Shown here: positions 1 through 4,709 of the stretch, piece after piece
Layout: every line of letters begins with the position of its first letter
Position numbering within the stretch: the first letter of the stretch is position 1
Program-made: the position numbers and the translations under genes
Notes under the pieces: model-generated
Database searches by the model: none
The model's input: the letters and a program-made list of their open reading frames with translations, nothing else
Told to the model about the DNA's origin: nothing
Assembly: GCF_003334785.1 (NCBI RefSeq)
Contig: NZ_QOWV01000045.1
Source: Escherichia coli
GTDB lineage: Bacteria; Pseudomonadota; Gammaproteobacteria; Enterobacterales; Enterobacteriaceae
Length of the DNA: 4,709 bases
Strand: one strand, 5' to 3'

Positions 1-71
1 GTGTATTTCTGGTCAACAACCAGTTGAGCGGATTCGCGTTTAAACTCTGCGCTAAAATTTCTTTTTTTCAT
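1..71 (-). CDS. IS3-family transposase OrfA (HTH subunit), first 23 codons only; the rest lies beyond the window start
   Basis: Minus-strand translation from ATG 71..69 gives [24 protein letters not shown]. This matches from memory the N-terminus of IS911 OrfA / InsN-type proteins (the SAEFK...AQLVV HTH lead-in). Too short to appear in the ORF track. Confidence 0.6.
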
Positions 72-143
72 TGGAGCACCTGTGTTGTTCTGAGGTGAGC
101 ATATCACCTCTGTTCAGGTGGCCAAATTCAGTGTGCCACTTCA
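1..143 (-). mobile_element. Left end of an IS3-family insertion sequence (IS911-like), cut by the window edge
   Basis: Read on the minus strand from position 143 the sequence begins TGAAGTGGCACACTGAATTTGGCC, a TG-initiated terminus typical of IS3-family inverted repeats. About 70 nt further in, an ATG (71..69) opens an ORF that runs off the window. The IS911 assignment is from memory. Confidence 0.6.
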
Positions 144-526
144 GTTTTTCACTGATATTCAGGGAACGGTTATGTGAGCTGAATATTCACAGAGGAAATA
201 CAGTGGTGCAGGTAACTCTGGCCTACGAAGCTCGGAAGTAAGCTGCCGGGCGGGGACGGAAGTCCCCGCTTTCCGGAAGTGTGAGGTATTTCAGGGGCAG
301 ACACCCTATATACCAGAAACAGCCGGTCCCGCCCGGGGCCGGCCCCCTGGGGCTAAGGCATTTCCAGCTTTTCAGTCATTTCATTATCAAAATCACATTA
401 AACGGCCGTAATCAGACATGATTTGTGCGCCAACACAGATCATCGTCACAACTTTCAAGTCGCTGATTTCAAAAAACTGTAGTATTCTCTGCGAAACGAT
501 CCCTGTTTGAGAATTGAGGAGGCGAG

Positions 527-787
527 ATGTCGCAGACAGAAAGTGCAGTGACTTCCTCATTGAGTCAAAAGCGGTTTGTGCGCAGAGGTAAGCCTATGTC
601 TGACTCTGAGAAACAGATGGCCGCTGTTGCAAGAAAACGTCTTACACACAAAGAGATAAAAGTTTTTGTCAAAAACCCTCTGAAAGATCTCATGGTTGAG
701 TACTGCGAGCAAAAAGGGATAACACAGGCTCAGTTCATTGAGAAAATTATCAAAGATGAACTGCAGAGGCTGGATATACTAAAGTAA
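527..787 (+). CDS. copB: CopB (RepA2), transcriptional repressor of the repA promoter in IncFII-type replicons
   Basis: 86-aa [42 protein letters not shown]..., recognised from memory as CopB/RepA2 of R1/R100-type plasmids. Shine-Dalgarno GAGGAGG at 516..522 sits 4 nt before the ATG. Position immediately upstream of copA/tap/repA1 is as expected. Confidence 0.9.
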
Positions 788-820
788 AGACTTTACTTTG
801 TGTCGTAGCATGCTAGATTA
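781..820 (+). promoter_or_regulatory. CopB operator dyad overlapping the repA promoter (P2) region
   Basis: Perfect dyad AAAGTAAAG-A-CTTTACTTT at 781..799 spans the copB stop codon (785..787). Candidate -35 (CTTTAC/TTTACT, 791..798) and -10 (TAGATT, 814..819) lie within and just after it. The role is assigned from the known R1/R100 circuit; the exact hexamers are uncertain. Confidence 0.5.
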
Positions 821-904
821 CTGATCGTTTAAGGAATTTTGTGGCTGGCCACGCCATAAGGTGGCAGGGAACTGGTTCTGATGTGGATTTACAGGAGCCA
901 GAAA

Positions 905-996
905 AGTGAAAACCCCGATAATCTTCTTCAACTTTGGCGAGTGCGAAAAGATTACCGGGGCTAACAAGAAACCGTATAGCCAACAATTCAGCTATG
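905..996 (-). ncRNA. copA: CopA antisense RNA (about 90 nt), complementary to the repA mRNA leader (CopT)
   Basis: On the minus strand there is a small 5' hairpin (972..979 pairing with 991..998). It is followed by a long imperfect stem-loop (913..925 pairing with 948..960, 12 bp with one mismatch, 22-nt loop). A U-rich tail then follows (plus-strand 901..912 GAAAAGTGAAAA reads UUUUCACUUUUC on the minus strand), making an intrinsic terminator. A sigma70-like promoter sits just upstream on the minus strand. The ends are approximate. Confidence 0.6.
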
Positions 997-1001
997 CGGG
1001 G

Positions 1002-1937: not shown

Positions 1938-2110
1938 AAGTGACCTCCTCAGAATAATCCGGCACGCGCCGGAGGCATTCGCACACCTGAAGCCCGTCAG
2001 TGCACAAAAAAACAGCGCCACATACAAAAAACAACCTCACCATCCACCTTCTGGTACATCCGGTTCCCCCTGTTTTTAATACAAAATACGCCTCAGCGAC
2101 GGGGAATTTT
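1938..2110 (+). terminator. CIS spacer between repA1 and oriR (C-rich, A/C-biased; Rho-dependent terminator region in R1-type replicons)
   Basis: The sequence between the repA1 stop and the DnaA box is C-rich and G-poor with runs of CACA/CAAAAA, has no ORF, and is about 170 bp long. This matches the described CIS element needed for cis-action of RepA. Function is inferred from position and composition only. Confidence 0.45.
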
Positions 2111-2300
2111 GCTTATCCACATTTAACTGCAAGGGACTTCCCCATAAGGTTACAACCGTTCATGTCATAAAGCGCCAGCCGCCAGTCTTACAGGGTGCAA
2201 TGTATCTTTTAAACACCTGTTTATATCTCTTTTAAACTACTTAATTACATTCATTTAAAAAGAAGACTTATTCACTGCCTGTCCTTTGGACAGACAAATA
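2111..2300 (+). other. oriR, origin of vegetative replication (DnaA box plus AT-rich unwinding region)
   Basis: DnaA box at 2113..2121 followed by an AT-rich block around 2205..2275 (TGTATCTTTTAAACACCTGTTTATATCTCTTTTAAACTACTTAATTACATTCATTTAAAAAG). Layout and distance from repA1 fit the roughly 190-bp R1-type origin. Boundaries are approximate. Confidence 0.55.
2113..2121 (+). promoter_or_regulatory. DnaA box (perfect consensus TTATCCACA) at the repA-proximal edge of oriR
   Basis: Exact 9-mer TTATCCACA at 2113..2121, about 175 bp downstream of the repA1 stop, where the oriR DnaA box lies in R1/R100. Confidence 0.65.
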
Positions 2301-2819
2301 TGCACCTCCCACCGCAAGCGGCGGGCCCCAACCGGAGCCACTTTAGTTACAACACACAAAGACAACCTCCAGAAAAACCCCGGTCCCGCGCAGAACTGAA
2401 ACCACAAAGCCCCTCCTCATAACTGAAAAGCGAGGCCGCCCCCGCCCGAAGGGCGGGAACAACATCGCTTTTAATTATGAATGTTGTAACTACATTGTCA
2501 TCGCTGCCAGTCTTCTAGCTGGAAGTCCTCAGTACACGCTCGTAAGCGGCCCTGACGGCCCGCTAACGCGGAGATACGCCCCGACTGCGGGTAAACCCTT
2601 GTCGGGACCACTCCGACCGCGCACAGAAGCTTTCTCATGACTGAAAGCGGGTATAGTCTGGCAGGGCTGGGGATGGGTAAGGTGAAATCTATCAGTCAGT
2701 ACCGGCTTACGCCGGGCTTCGGCGGTTTTACTCCGGTATCATATGAAACAACGGAGTGCCGCCTTCCATGCCGCTGGCGCGGCATCAGGATAACTGAAGA
2801 GTGACAGTACACATCAACA

Positions 2820-2890
2820 TCAAACAGACTTGTTAAGCAGTCTTTCAGGGTGTAAGGTGAAGACCTGTTAAACAGTCTCAGAGGTGTGTT
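2820..2890 (+). promoter_or_regulatory. Candidate promoter/operator of the toxin-antitoxin operon with three iterated 9-mers
   Basis: Three copies of AA(A/G)CAG(A/T)CT at 2822..2830, 2835..2843 and 2870..2878, in the 70 bp upstream of the antitoxin ATG, with GAGG (2881..2884) as ribosome-binding site. Iterated sites overlapping the promoter are typical of autoregulated toxin-antitoxin operons. The promoter hexamers were not confidently placed. Confidence 0.35.
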
Positions 2891-3142
2891 ATGCCCAGTA
2901 TCATTTTGTCTGACACCAGTGCAAGCGTCAGTGAACTGAAAAAAAATCCAATGGCGACAGTCAGTGCCGGAGAGGGTTATCCTGTTGCCATTCTTAACCG
3001 GAATCAGCCTGCATTCTACTGTGTTCCTGCTGAATTGTATGAAAGGATGCTTGATGCTATGGATGACCAGGAGCTGGTGAAACTGGTTACTGAACGCAGC
3101 AATCAGCCACTACATGATGTGGACCTGGACAGTTATTTATGA
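2891..3142 (+). CDS. Type II antitoxin, Phd/YefM/StbD-like (83 aa)
   Basis: ORF MPSIILSDTSASVSELKKNPMATVSAGEGYPVAILNRNQPAFYCVPAELYERM... has the N-terminal pattern of Phd/YefM-fold antitoxins and an acidic C-terminal tail. Its stop overlaps the toxin start in ATGA (3139..3142), the classic toxin-antitoxin coupling. Confidence 0.8.
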   Translation: MPSIILSDTSASVSELKKNPMATVSAGEGYPVAILNRNQPAFYCVPAELYERMLDAMDDQELVKLVTERSNQPLHDVDLDSYL

Positions 3143-3426
3143 CTTATACGGTTAAATTCAGGGATGATGCCCTCAGGGAATGGCTGAAACTGGATAAATC
3201 CGTTCAACAACAGTTCGCAAAAAAACTAAAAAAATGCAGCGAAAATCCTCATATACCTTCAGCAAAACTACGTGGATTAAAAGATTGCTACAAAATAAAA
3301 CTTCGTGCATCAGGTTTTCGTCTGGTCTATCAGGTGATTGATGACATGTTAATTATTGCGGTTGTCGCAGTAGGTAAACGTGAACGTAGTCATGTTTACA
3401 ATCTCGCCAGCGAGAGAATGAGATAG
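3139..3426 (+). CDS. relE: RelE/ParE-superfamily toxin (RelE/StbE-like mRNA interferase, 95 aa)
   Basis: ORF MTYTVKFRDDALREWLKLDKSVQQQFAKKL...KLRGLKDCYKIKLRASGFRLVYQVID...VGKRERSHVY is closely similar, from memory, to E. coli RelE (KLRGMPDCYKIKLRSSGYRLVYQVID...VGKRERSEVY). Same length as RelE and 4-bp overlap with the antitoxin gene. Confidence 0.85.
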   Translation: MTYTVKFRDDALREWLKLDKSVQQQFAKKLKKCSENPHIPSAKLRGLKDCYKIKLRASGFRLVYQVIDDMLIIAVVAVGKRERSHVYNLASERMR

Positions 3427-3435
3427 GGGGTGTTA

Positions 3436-3981
3436 ATGCTTTTAAGTTTTAGTGAGTTAGATGTTCTTATTTATCAGGGGAAGGTTGGGGGTTTATTTCG
3501 TGAAAGAAAAAACGAAAGGATTGCTACAGACATTGATTCCAGAAACAAGTCATCATCAAGCAGTCATGAATATGATTCAGTTTTATCATTTCTATTTATT
3601 TGTGATAATGGAAAAGAAATAAATGTGAATTTAACAAATTGGAATATTAACATATTTCCAGGTCAAGAGATTGTCATTTATTTTGTGGAAAACTCAAAGA
3701 AAAACAAAAAAATACCATACATGATAAAAAACAAAAGCACATCGGAAGTGACTAATAATGTTCAAGAAATGTATAAAGAGTTTTTTTATACATCATACTT
3801 CAAACTGATAATACCTTTCCTTTTAATCATTTCTTACTTTATGTCATCCATATCTGTGGCTATCATGTCATTCGTTTTATATGTCATAATCAGAAGAAGA
3901 ATAGGAAAAGATTTCTTTTCAGAAATAAAAAGGAAAAGGTTAAAAAAAGAAGATATCATGGGGTTAGAGCACGTAATATAG
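3436..3981 (+). CDS. Hypothetical small membrane-anchored protein (181 aa from ATG 3436), AT-rich orphan gene of unknown function
   Basis: Uninterrupted 181-183 codon frame in DNA of roughly 25-30% G+C (by eye), where stop codons should be frequent. GGGGG (3425..3429) lies 6 nt before ATG 3436; GTG 3430 is an alternative start. The product has a polar N-terminal region with a Ser run, one long hydrophobic segment FKLIIPFLLIISYFMSSISVAIMSFVLYVII, then a basic tail RRRIGK...KRKRLKK. I recognise no family. Confidence 0.7.
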   Translation: MLLSFSELDVLIYQGKVGGLFRERKNERIATDIDSRNKSSSSSHEYDSVLSFLFICDNGKEINVNLTNWNINIFPGQEIVIYFVENSKKNKKIPYMIKNKSTSEVTNNVQEMYKEFFYTSYFKLIIPFLLIISYFMSSISVAIMSFVLYVIIRRRIGKDFFSEIKRKRLKKEDIMGLEHVI

Positions 3982-4028
3982 GGGCGACAGGTCCTTATAA
4001 GGGACCGTCCAGGGACCGGAGTTCCATT

Positions 4029-4070
4029 GCTACGCCGGAACCGCCGAAATTTCCGGCGTAGCTCTCTCTT
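4029..4070 (+). terminator. Candidate intrinsic terminator after the AT-rich gene
   Basis: Perfect 12-bp inverted repeat GCTACGCCGGAA (4029..4040) / TTCCGGCGTAGC (4051..4062) with a 10-nt loop, followed by the pyrimidine/T-rich tract TCTCTCTT. A second hairpin, GGTCC-TTATAAG-GGACC, lies at 3990..4006. The U-tract is weak, so the terminator function is tentative. Confidence 0.35.
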
Positions 4071-4088
4071 GCCTGGACGTTCTGTTGT

Positions 4089-4126
4089 GGGGGGTGAGGG
4101 CCAATGGAACGAAAGCGTACGGTAAG
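4089..4126 (+). mobile_element. Terminal inverted repeat (38 bp) of a Tn3-family transposon, Tn1000 (gamma-delta)-like; transposon interior lies to the right
   Basis: GGGGGGTGAGGGCCAATGGAACGAAAGCGTACGGTAAG matches from memory the Tn1000 repeat GGGGTTTGAGGGCCAATGGAACGAAAACGTACGTTAAG at about 34 of 38 positions. It also carries the Tn3-family hallmarks: GGGG terminus, TGGAACGAAA core, ACG..TAAG inner end. Orientation puts the element outer end at 4089. Confidence 0.65.
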
Positions 4127-4507
4127 GGCTCCGTTTGGGAAACGGACAATATTGTACGGTTGCGTTATCGCGGTAGGGTGTACTCCCGCGCTATACGGTG
4201 TTTTCAGGATAATTGGTCTTAATCGGATAACCTAAATGCGATACAGCAAGAGCGACAACTTAAAAGCGATTAAACCTGCCGCCGCCAGAACGGTACAGTC
4301 CCTGACACAGGCACCACTGGTATAATCCAGTAAAGAGCATATGGAGAACTTATCATGTCGTCACGCAACTCTATACATGATTTTATAATGCTGCTCCCGG
4401 CGCTGCTGTTTGTTGGTAAGCGTACAGCCTGAACCGTCTGGTCAGAATCTGACGAATTAGACAAAGTGGTGTCCACCAAATAAGTAGTGGGAACCAAAGT
4501 GTCAGAT

Positions 4508-4636
4508 ATGCAGAAAAATGTGACTCCCGGCAGGCGAAAAGGCTGCCCTAATTATCCTCCCGAATTTAAACAGCAGCTCGTTGCTGCCTCCTGTGAACCC
4601 GGGATATCCATCTCAAAACTTGCTCTTGAAAAGTAA
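4508..4636 (+). pseudogene. Short OrfA-like fragment of an IS3-family transposase (42 codons then stop)
   Basis: ATG 4508 translates to MQKNVTPGRRKGCPNYPPEFKQQLVAASCEPGISISKLALEK and stops. The (Y/F)xxEFK...V...SIS..A pattern is the N-terminal HTH lead-in of IS3-family OrfA proteins, which are normally about 100 aa. A TGAACCG motif 78 bp upstream (4430) resembles an IS3-type end. Weak evidence. Confidence 0.3.
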
Positions 4637-4709
4637 CCGGCTCATTTAAACCGTCTGGTCTGTTTCCTCCGGCTCTACAAAAATAATGTCCATCATTTTT
4701 AATGGACAC

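What the first reader, a model, noticed from the sequence alone, without database searches (positions are those of the whole stretch)
1..526. IS911-like element ends 383 bp upstream of copB, with GC-rich palindromes in the intervening DNA
The IS terminus at 143 abuts the replicon upstream region, so the native sequence upstream of the copB promoter has been replaced or interrupted by the IS. An outward-facing IS end this close could influence copB transcription. The remaining 380 bp contain a perfect hairpin CGGGGAC-GGAA-GTCCCCG (251..268) followed by CTTTCC, the palindrome TTCCGGAA (271..278), and a perfect 12-bp palindrome GGGGCCGGCCCC (335..346). These are possible terminator or protein-binding features of unknown role.
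Basis: partly seen in the sequence, partly recalled or inferred. Interest (0 to 1): 0.3.

Follow-up and report, generated by a model that had tools for sequence, protein, structure and literature searches.

The report
IS911-truncated srnB toxin remnant beside copB
The DNA between the insertion sequence and copB is the leftover 3' part of a well-known plasmid "addiction" toxin gene (srnB, hok family) cut by IS911, and its GC-rich palindromes are that gene's known mRNA hairpins, so the finding is ordinary.

Summary
An IS911-family end stops at base 143, the hairpin is at 251-268 (it extends to 250-269), TTCCGGAA is at 271-278, GGGGCCGGCCCC is at 335-346, and the copB ATG is at 527.

The interpretation needs replacing. 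Bases 144-389 are not anonymous replicon upstream DNA. [quoted passage not shown] IS911 cut the toxin gene inside codon 18. The promoter, the 5' leader carrying tac, mok and Sok, and the toxin's N-terminus are gone.

The palindromes belong to the srnB mRNA 3' UTR:
- 250-269 is the protective stem-loop that follows the stop codon.
- 298-306 is the fbi element.
- 322-343 is a terminal GC hairpin.

These features are relics. The IS end facing copB is IRL, which carries no outward -35 in IS911, so an effect on copB transcription is unlikely. Both elements and this kind of junction are already known. Interest is low.

The parts
1..143 (-). Left end (IRL side) of an IS911-family IS3 element: the terminal repeat tip at 143 and the first 23 codons of orfA (ATG at 71-69). 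It is cut by the window start.
   Evidence: It is about 99% identical to RefSeq 'IS3-like element IS911 family transposase'. In NZ_AP022179.1 only 360 bp of the element remain and it is annotated as a pseudogene.
144..241 (+). 3' 98 nt of an srnB-type Hok/Gef toxin gene: from the second base of codon 18 to the TAA at 239-241, encoding ...FSLIFRERLCELNIHRGNTVVQVTLAYEARK*.
   Evidence: one record names the identical protein srnB. Pfam HOK_GEF positions 16-42 of 42, E = 1.2e-4; NCBIfam Hok family.
131..241 (+). 36-codon fusion ORF that starts at a GTG inside the IS911 tip. One copy of the plasmid record annotates it as 'Hok/Gef family protein'. It is an annotation artefact of the truncation.
   Evidence: One search lists it. 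The current RefSeq annotation of the same plasmid has dropped it. It lacks the N-terminal 15 positions of the Pfam model.
250..269 (+). H1: 8-bp GC-rich stem with a GGAA loop, 8 nt after the toxin stop codon. It is the counterpart of the terminal stem-loop of processed (truncated) hok mRNA. An optional outer helix pairs CCGG 246-249 with CCGG 273-276, which accounts for the TTCCGGAA palindrome.
   Evidence: -24.1 kcal/mol, z = -4.0. 95% of cells paired in relatives. An analogous hairpin follows the stop in all seven other hok-type loci examined. PMC9841398 gives the role in R1.
298..306 (+). fbi (fold-back inhibitory) element CAGACACCC, complementary to the 5' end (tac) of the intact srnB mRNA. 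Its partner is absent from this window.
   Evidence: There is 9-10 bp of complementarity to the 5' end of the Rfam RF01794 match in intact relatives. L011 has linked changes on both sides (G to A at the 5' end, C to T at the 3' end).
285..314 (+). Local hairpin that contains the fbi element (GGUAU/AUACC plus AGGG/CCCU in this window).
   Evidence: -10.9 kcal/mol, z = -3.3. It becomes a perfect 11-bp helix in L011.
322..343 (+). H3: 9-bp stem (GCCGGUCCC / GGGGCCGGC, including one U-G pair) with a GCCC loop. It is the terminal GC hairpin of the srnB cassette.
   Evidence: -19.9 kcal/mol. 100% of cells paired in 11 relatives, with four one-sided wobble-keeping changes. The palindrome is imperfect in all relatives. 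A GC hairpin occupies the same position after fbi in R1-type hok.
144..389 (+). Whole surviving part of the ~505-bp srnB cassette.
   Evidence: L003 2240-2744 is replaced by 32 unrelated bp in R100. R100-type plasmids match only from window 390.
390..526 (+). Replicon-proper DNA upstream of copB, shared with R100. It presumably holds the constitutive copB promoter, which was not located.
   Evidence: No consensus promoter was found. [quoted passage not shown]
527..787 (+). copB (annotated 'replication regulatory protein RepA'), the first gene of the IncFII copB-repA unit.
   Evidence: CopA RNA at 904-995 on the minus strand scores 101.7 bits against Rfam RF00042.

Best explanation
[quoted passage not shown] This is a ~505-bp module that lies just upstream of copB in many F-like plasmids. 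An IS911-family element, now itself a fragment, is joined to it inside toxin codon 18. Everything upstream has been lost: the promoter, the 5' leader with the tac, mok and Sok region, and the toxin's transmembrane N-terminus.

The GC-rich palindromes are RNA elements of the srnB mRNA 3' UTR:
- H1 (250-269) corresponds to the stem-loop that forms the 3' end of the processed, translatable mRNA and shields it from 3' exonucleases.
- CAGACACCC (298-306) is the fbi element. In the full-length mRNA it pairs with the 5' end and keeps the message closed.
- H3 (322-343) is the terminal GC hairpin of the cassette, probably its transcription stop.

In this window the elements have no partner and no promoter, so they are relics. 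They survive because they are physically linked to the essential replicon. At most they passively block stray transcription from the IS side. copB is expressed from its own promoter within 390-526.

Shown here: the homology, the boundaries, the absence of the 5' half, the hairpins and their conservation, and tac-fbi complementarity in relatives.

Inferred: the roles of H1, fbi and H3, by analogy with R1 hok; and the lack of any effect on copB.
For: 1; more than 2700 PLSDB records cover at least 80% of 144-526, with 'Hok/Gef family protein' annotated under the match.
2; intact relatives (L003, L004) continue upstream of window 144 into a 49-codon Hok-family gene.
3; the Rfam sok/hok-leader model RF01794 scores 90 bits in the relative L003; it has no match in the window.
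4; the remnant matches only the C-terminal part of the Hok models.
5; one record with an identical protein names the gene srnB.
6. R100 lacks exactly the 505-bp cassette and shares only 390-526.
7; the near-identical plasmid NZ_AP022179.1 has no copy of the 5' half.
8. H1 and H3 are stable and stay paired in relatives.
9. Proteus- and pndA-type loci, with unrelated sequences, show both a GC hairpin 7-13 nt after the stop and a 5'-end-complementary segment about 60 nt after it. Other types show only the hairpin clearly.
10; the R1 hok locus has the same order (stop, hairpin, fbi, AU-rich spacer, GC hairpin). Its numbering agrees with PMC9841398, where 19 of 22 loss-of-function 3'-UTR substitutions break C-G pairs of that first hairpin.
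11. L011 has linked tac and fbi changes.
12. with PMC9330008: the IS end is the IRL of IS911.
Against: - No double-sided covariation was found for H1 or H3 within the srnB subtype. The sequences are too similar, so structural support rests on thermodynamics and on cross-subfamily analogy.
- Neither H1 nor H3 is followed by a U-tract, and the terminator scan found none. The 3' end of srnB mRNA, and any terminator role for H3, are therefore not established here.
- The primary papers that mapped the srnB mRNA ends were not available.
- The copB promoter was not located, so 'no effect on copB' is argued from R100 rather than measured.
Confidence: 0.9

Rival explanations
1. The retained hairpins H1 and H3 act as a transcriptional insulator. 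They stop read-through from upstream DNA (srnB itself in intact plasmids, the IS here) before it reaches copB-repA, and they are kept for that reason.
For: srnB and copB point the same way and are only 285 nt apart. The hairpins are very stable. The 3' half of the cassette occurs in more PLSDB records than the 5' half: 2986 against 2798, or 2774 against 2321 at 80% coverage or more.
Against: There is no U-tract after either stem. Relatives carry deletions of H1 (L012, L014), of H3 (L008) or of both (L013). R100 has neither hairpin. The 3'-over-5' retention bias is explained more simply by linkage to the essential replicon.
Confidence: 0.15
2. One reading: the IS end supplies or creates an outward promoter, or removes native control DNA, and so alters copB transcription.
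For: IS3-family ends can form hybrid promoters (PMC9330008). A weak candidate pairs GTGCCA in the IS tip with GATATT at a 15-nt spacing (window 133-159).
Against: In IS911 the outward -35 is in IRR, whereas IRL faces copB here (PMC9330008). The weak candidate has poor spacing and would have to read through H1 and H3 over 370 bp. R100 expresses copB with only the 390-526 block in common. No consensus promoter was found on the plus strand in 1-526.
Confidence: 0.05
3. The palindromes are DNA-level protein-binding sites, or chance features, unrelated to any RNA.
For: The 12-bp and 8-bp palindromes are not individually significant. The 12-bp palindrome is perfect only in this lineage.
Against: H1 and H3 are conserved as hairpins on the toxin's sense strand in thousands of plasmids, and at the same positions in other hok subfamilies with different sequences. 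They occur or are absent together with the srnB cassette.
Confidence: 0.03

Closest known systems
srnB/srnC of plasmid F (hok/sok family type I toxin-antitoxin)
   Same: The surviving protein sequence is identical to that of intact relatives, one of which is annotated srnB. The position immediately upstream of an IncFII-type copB/repA replicon is the same. The 3'-UTR layout is the same: stop, hairpin, fbi, GC hairpin.
   Different: Only the last 98 nt of the gene and the 3' UTR remain. There is no promoter, no tac, mok or Sok region, and no N-terminal transmembrane part. The locus cannot work as a toxin-antitoxin system. This lineage also carries an A-to-C change and a GG insertion next to H3 that create the perfect 12-bp palindrome.
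hok/sok of plasmid R1 (parB)
   Same: The order of 3' elements is the same in both. The function of the first hairpin is documented for R1: loss-of-function mutations break its C-G pairs (PMC9841398). The tac/fbi end-pairing logic is shared.
   Different: It is a different subfamily, and the other hok-type toxins recovered were only 40-50% identical to SrnB. The R1 distal hairpin is followed by a U-rich tail, whereas the one here is not.
IS911 (IS3 family) insertions
   Same: The terminal sequence and the orfA N-terminus match. A complete IS911 with a 3-bp target duplication (GGT) sits 30 bp further upstream in the same gene, in the same orientation, in 11 other plasmids.
   Different: Here the element is a fragment and the DNA on its far side is not the other half of srnB, so no target duplication can be read.
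IncFII basic replicon (R100/NR1, R1): copB-copA-tap-repA
   Same: copB, CopA RNA (101.7 bits), repA and the 137 bp upstream of copB are shared.
   Different: R100 has 32 unrelated bp where this plasmid type has the srnB cassette.

Membership tests
Hok/Gef - Sok type I toxin-antitoxin locus | ORF homologous to Hok/Gef toxins (Pfam PF01848) | tested here: met
   The remnant matches model positions 16-42 of 42, E = 1.2e-4. It also matches the NCBIfam Hok family.
Hok/Gef - Sok type I toxin-antitoxin locus | Complete toxin ORF including the N-terminal transmembrane segment | tested here: not met
   The gene is cut inside codon 18 of 49. The first 15 Pfam positions are absent.
Hok/Gef - Sok type I toxin-antitoxin locus | 5' leader with the tac, ucb, mok and Sok-target region (Rfam RF01794) and the antisense Sok gene | tested here: not met
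   The window has no RF01794 match at E up to 1. Intact loci score 52-133 bits, eight of nine above the 59-bit gathering threshold. The 5' half is also absent from the whole near-identical plasmid.
Hok/Gef - Sok type I toxin-antitoxin locus | Stable stem-loop just 3' of the toxin stop codon (the 3' end of the processed mRNA) | tested here: met
   H1 at 250-269, -24.1 kcal/mol. It is conserved and has a counterpart in every other hok-type locus examined.
Hok/Gef - Sok type I toxin-antitoxin locus | 3' fbi element complementary to the mRNA 5' end | tested here: inconclusive
   The fbi sequence is present at 298-306 and pairs with the 5' end of intact relatives. The window itself has no 5' partner.
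Hok/Gef - Sok type I toxin-antitoxin locus | Post-segregational killing or toxicity | not testable with these tools
   This needs an experiment. It is predicted to be lost.
IS911 (IS3 family) | Terminal inverted repeat starting TGAAGTGG and an adjacent orfA | tested here: met
   Both ends of the complete copy in L031 share TGAAGTGG...TGGCCACC.
IS911 (IS3 family) | Complete element (orfA and orfB with frameshift, second inverted repeat) flanked by a 3-bp target duplication | tested here: not met
   The window holds 143 bp. In NZ_AP022179.1 only 360 bp remain, annotated as a pseudogene. The far-side flank is unrelated.
Intrinsic (rho-independent) terminator | GC-rich stem-loop directly followed by a U-tract | tested here: not met
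   The scan found none in 1-1100. The tails are CUUUCCGG after H1 and CCCCUGGGG after H3.
IncFII copB-repA replicon | copB ORF, CopA antisense RNA and repA in the canonical order | tested here: met

The most novel reading that the evidence does not exclude
The first 18 codons of srnB may be a recurrent target for IS3-family elements. Three distinct junctions lie within about 50 bp: IS911 twice and IS629/IS1203 once. This could reflect a target hot spot or selection to disarm the toxin in IS-rich virulence plasmids. On the same reading, the 3' UTR hairpins would be kept as an insulator for copB-repA.
Probability: 0.12. Interest if true: 0.3.

Novelty: already known. Interest (0 to 1): 0.1.

Why it matters
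The finding matters little beyond annotation.

- The 383 bp upstream of copB in this plasmid type should be annotated as an srnB pseudogene remnant plus its 3' UTR. It should not be read as replicon control DNA.
- The short 'Hok/Gef family protein' CDS that some copies of the record carry is an artefact. It starts inside the IS.
- This replicon-adjacent addiction module is inactive here, so plasmid stability must depend on other systems. Candidates are the Phd/RelE pair in the window and an intact pndA-type locus elsewhere on the near-identical plasmid.

Tried and rejected
- Covariation test of H1, the local fbi hairpin and H3 on 11 srnB-type sequences. No pair changed on both sides and the shuffle control was uninformative, because the sequences are too similar. 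An earlier impression of a G-C to C-G swap in L015 turned out to be a register shift in a decayed copy, and I withdrew it.
- Scan of one genome per species for more diverse srnB loci. It returned only 5 loci. Three carry srnB-type plasmid sequence 96-100% identical to the query but are assigned to unrelated taxa (Lachnospiraceae, Streptomyces, Collinsella), so they look like contaminant contigs.
- Consensus promoter and terminator scans. They found the copA promoter but no copB promoter and no canonical terminator, so the copB start site stays unmapped.
- Search for the missing 5' half of srnB and for a target duplication in NZ_AP022179.1. The 5' half is absent, so the insertion cannot be told apart from an insertion followed by deletion.
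- The primary papers on srnB mRNA ends (PMC395037, PMC1369862) are not held. The exact 3' end of srnB mRNA could not be taken from the literature.
- Reading the 12-bp palindrome as a binding site. I rejected this because it is imperfect in every relative and not significant by shuffling.

Full report
**Observation**

- The reverse complement of 1-143 begins TGAAGTGGCACACTGAATTTGGCCACC. It runs into an ORF that starts at 71-69 on the minus strand and encodes [23 protein letters not shown].
- In the near-identical plasmid NZ_AP022179.1 the same DNA extends further. That stretch is about 99% identical to elements RefSeq calls 'IS3-like element IS911 family transposase'.
- IS-side matches end exactly at base 143, and plasmid-side matches begin exactly at 144.
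- The hairpin at 251-268 has one extra G-C pair (250-269). TTCCGGAA is at 271-278, GGGGCCGGCCCC at 335-346 and the copB ATG at 527.
- In 5000 dinucleotide shuffles of 144-526, a perfect hairpin of 8 bp or more occurred in 2.9%. A 12-bp palindrome occurred in 7.7%. Four 8-bp palindromes were seen against 1.3 expected. Composition statistics are therefore only mildly supportive. Conservation is what matters.

**What the intervening DNA is**

More than 2700 records covered at least 80% of the query, and 'Hok/Gef family protein' was annotated under the match.

In intact relatives (L003 = NZ_CP101258.1, and L004) the sequence continues upstream of window 144 into a 49-codon Hok-family gene. Window 144 corresponds to the second base of codon 18. 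One record with an identical protein names the gene srnB.

The frame that ends at TAA 239-241 reads ...FSLIFRERLCELNIHRGNTVVQVTLAYEARK. It matches Pfam HOK_GEF positions 16-42 of 42 (E = 1.2e-4) and the NCBIfam Hok family model.

The Rfam model RF01794 describes the hok-mRNA leader and Sok region. It scores 52-133 bits just upstream of the toxin gene in the ten intact loci tested, nine of them above its 59-bit gathering threshold. It has no match in the window.

**Cassette boundaries**

R100, the IncFII reference, aligns with L003 on both sides of a 505-bp stretch (L003 2240-2744), which R100 replaces with 32 unrelated bp. The right boundary falls at window 389/390. This agrees with R100-type plasmids matching only window 390-526.

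The region therefore divides into three parts:
- 1-143: the IS911 end.
- 144-389: the 3' remnant of the srnB cassette.
- 390-526: the replicon-proper DNA upstream of copB.

**The palindromes as RNA elements**

On the toxin's sense strand the remnant folds into three hairpins.
- H1 pairs 250-257 with 262-269 and has a GGAA loop. With an outer CCGG/CCGG helix (246-249 with 273-276) it reaches -24.1 kcal/mol and z = -4.0. The outer helix explains why TTCCGGAA looks palindromic.
- A local hairpin spans 285-314 (-10.9 kcal/mol).
- H3 pairs 322-330 with 335-343, has a GCCC loop and folds at -19.9 kcal/mol.

In all relatives it is imperfect (for example GGGGCCGGCACC). It is perfect here only because of an A-to-C change in this lineage, which also carries a GG insertion just 3' of it.

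Between H1 and H3 lies CAGACACCC (298-306). In intact relatives this is complementary over 9-10 bp to the first bases of the leader (GGGUGUYUG). In L011, a G-to-A change at the 5' end is matched by a C-to-T change at the 3' end. This is the tac/fbi end-pairing described for hok mRNA (PMC9841398).

**Comparison with other hok subfamilies**

All seven other hok-type loci examined have a GC-rich hairpin 7-13 nt after the stop codon. These are two Proteus loci, a Vibrio locus, two IncI pndA loci and two further types. The Proteus and pndA types also show a segment complementary to the mRNA 5' end about 60 nt after the stop. The Proteus match is clear (9-10 bp) and the pndA match is interrupted. 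The Vibrio, L023 and L024 loci showed no clear match.

Its numbering agrees with the positions quoted in PMC9841398 (G4, C5 and T6; G105 and A106; G345 and C358). It shows the same order: stop, hairpin at 342-359, fbi around 389-396, an AU-rich spacer, then a GC hairpin. In R1, 19 of 22 loss-of-function substitutions in the 3' UTR break C-G pairs of that first hairpin, and the processed mRNA disappears (PMC9841398).

By position, H1 is therefore the protective 3' stem-loop of the processed srnB mRNA, and H3 is the distal hairpin of the cassette.

**Limits of this evidence**
- Within the srnB subtype no base pair shows changes on both sides. H3 is 100% paired with four wobble-preserving single changes, and H1 is 95% paired.
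- Neither stem is followed by a U-tract, and the terminator scan found nothing.
- The papers that mapped the srnB mRNA ends were not available. A terminator role for H3 is therefore inference.

**State of the locus**

The near-identical plasmid NZ_AP022179.1 (94 kb) carries eatA, astA, fimbrial and type VI secretion genes and many insertion sequences. It is 100% identical to window 1-1000 and to 2000-4709. It contains no copy of the 5' half of the cassette. There the IS911 piece is only 360 bp, annotated as a pseudogene, and abuts IS1203. The truncation is thus an insertion followed by loss of the far side, and no target duplication can be read.

A 36-codon ORF starts at a GTG inside the IS tip (131-241). 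One copy of the record calls it 'Hok/Gef family protein', and the current RefSeq annotation omits it. With no promoter, no leader and no transmembrane N-terminus, the remnant should be inert.

**Effect on copB**
- IS911 has its outward -35 in IRR and a -10 in IRL (PMC9330008). The end facing copB here is IRL.
- R100 shares only 390-526 with this window, so the promoter is most simply placed there. Consensus scans did not find it.
- Relatives carry deletions of H1 (L012, L014), of H3 (L008) or of both (L013). The hairpins are therefore dispensable for these plasmids.
- I conclude that an IS effect on copB is unlikely (about 5%) and that an insulator role for the hairpins is possible but unsupported (about 15%).

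**Wider context**

The 3' half of the cassette is found in 2986 PLSDB records and the 5' half in 2798. At 80% coverage or more the counts are 2774 and 2321. 5'-truncated remnants next to copB are therefore common, as expected when only the replicon side is protected by selection.

Three different IS junctions lie within about 50 bp of the srnB coding sequence:
- This one: 2 records.
- A complete IS911 with a 3-bp GGT duplication, 30 bp further upstream and in the same orientation: 11 records, mostly from pigs.
- An IS629/IS1203 end 17 bp upstream: 19 records, those listed mostly from human stool.

This recurrence is the only mildly unusual point, and I did not analyse it further.

**Verdict**

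The features are the known 3' elements of a known toxin-antitoxin cassette, truncated by a known insertion sequence beside a known replicon. The finding is already known and of low interest.

Noticed in passing
window 418-443: An inverted repeat, ATGATTTGTG (418-427) and CACAGATCAT (434-443), is 9 of 10 complementary with a 6-nt spacer. It lies in the replicon-shared block upstream of copB and is invariant in the window, R100, L003 and L007. It could be an operator or a promoter-region element.
   Followed up: no
window 390-526: No sigma-70 consensus promoter for copB could be found on the plus strand. Comparison with R100 nevertheless implies that the promoter lies in this block.
   Followed up: partly
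L031 (NZ_MG904993.1) 831-2080; L002 (NZ_CP025904.1) about 2984; window 143/144: Three distinct IS3-family junctions lie within about 50 bp of the srnB coding sequence in PLSDB. A complete IS911 with a GGT duplication occurs in 11 records, an IS629/IS1203 end in 19 records, and this window's IS911 junction in 2 records. This could be a hot spot or recurrent disarming of the toxin.
   Followed up: partly
L001/L032 (NZ_AP022179.1) 1-1716: The IS911 copy is a 360-bp fragment. It abuts a sequence that resembles an IS30 terminal repeat (from memory only), then a complete IS1203, with a group II intron reverse-transcriptase fragment beyond.
   Followed up: partly
L016 (NZ_AP022179.1) 41177-41329: The same plasmid carries an apparently intact pndA-type hok locus, with leader, toxin, post-stop hairpin and fbi-like GCGCCC, next to another IS1203. 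It may supply post-segregational killing in place of srnB.
   Followed up: partly
L011 (NZ_CP132978.1) about 540-575: Three linked substitutions turn the local fbi-containing hairpin into a perfect 11-bp helix while keeping tac-fbi complementarity.
   Followed up: partly
window 2891-3426 and 3430-3981: A Phd/YefM-RelE type II toxin-antitoxin pair lies downstream of the origin region. It is followed by a low-GC 183-codon ORF with a hydrophobic C-terminal stretch, annotated 'hypothetical'.
   Followed up: no
NZ_AP022179.1 85411-85432: An isolated 22-nt copy of the IS911 IRL tip lies just downstream of eatA.
   Followed up: no
L025, L026, L027: srnB-type plasmid sequence 96-100% identical to the query turned up in assemblies labelled Lachnospiraceae MAG, Streptomyces morookaense and Collinsella MAG. 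These are probably contaminant contigs.
   Followed up: no
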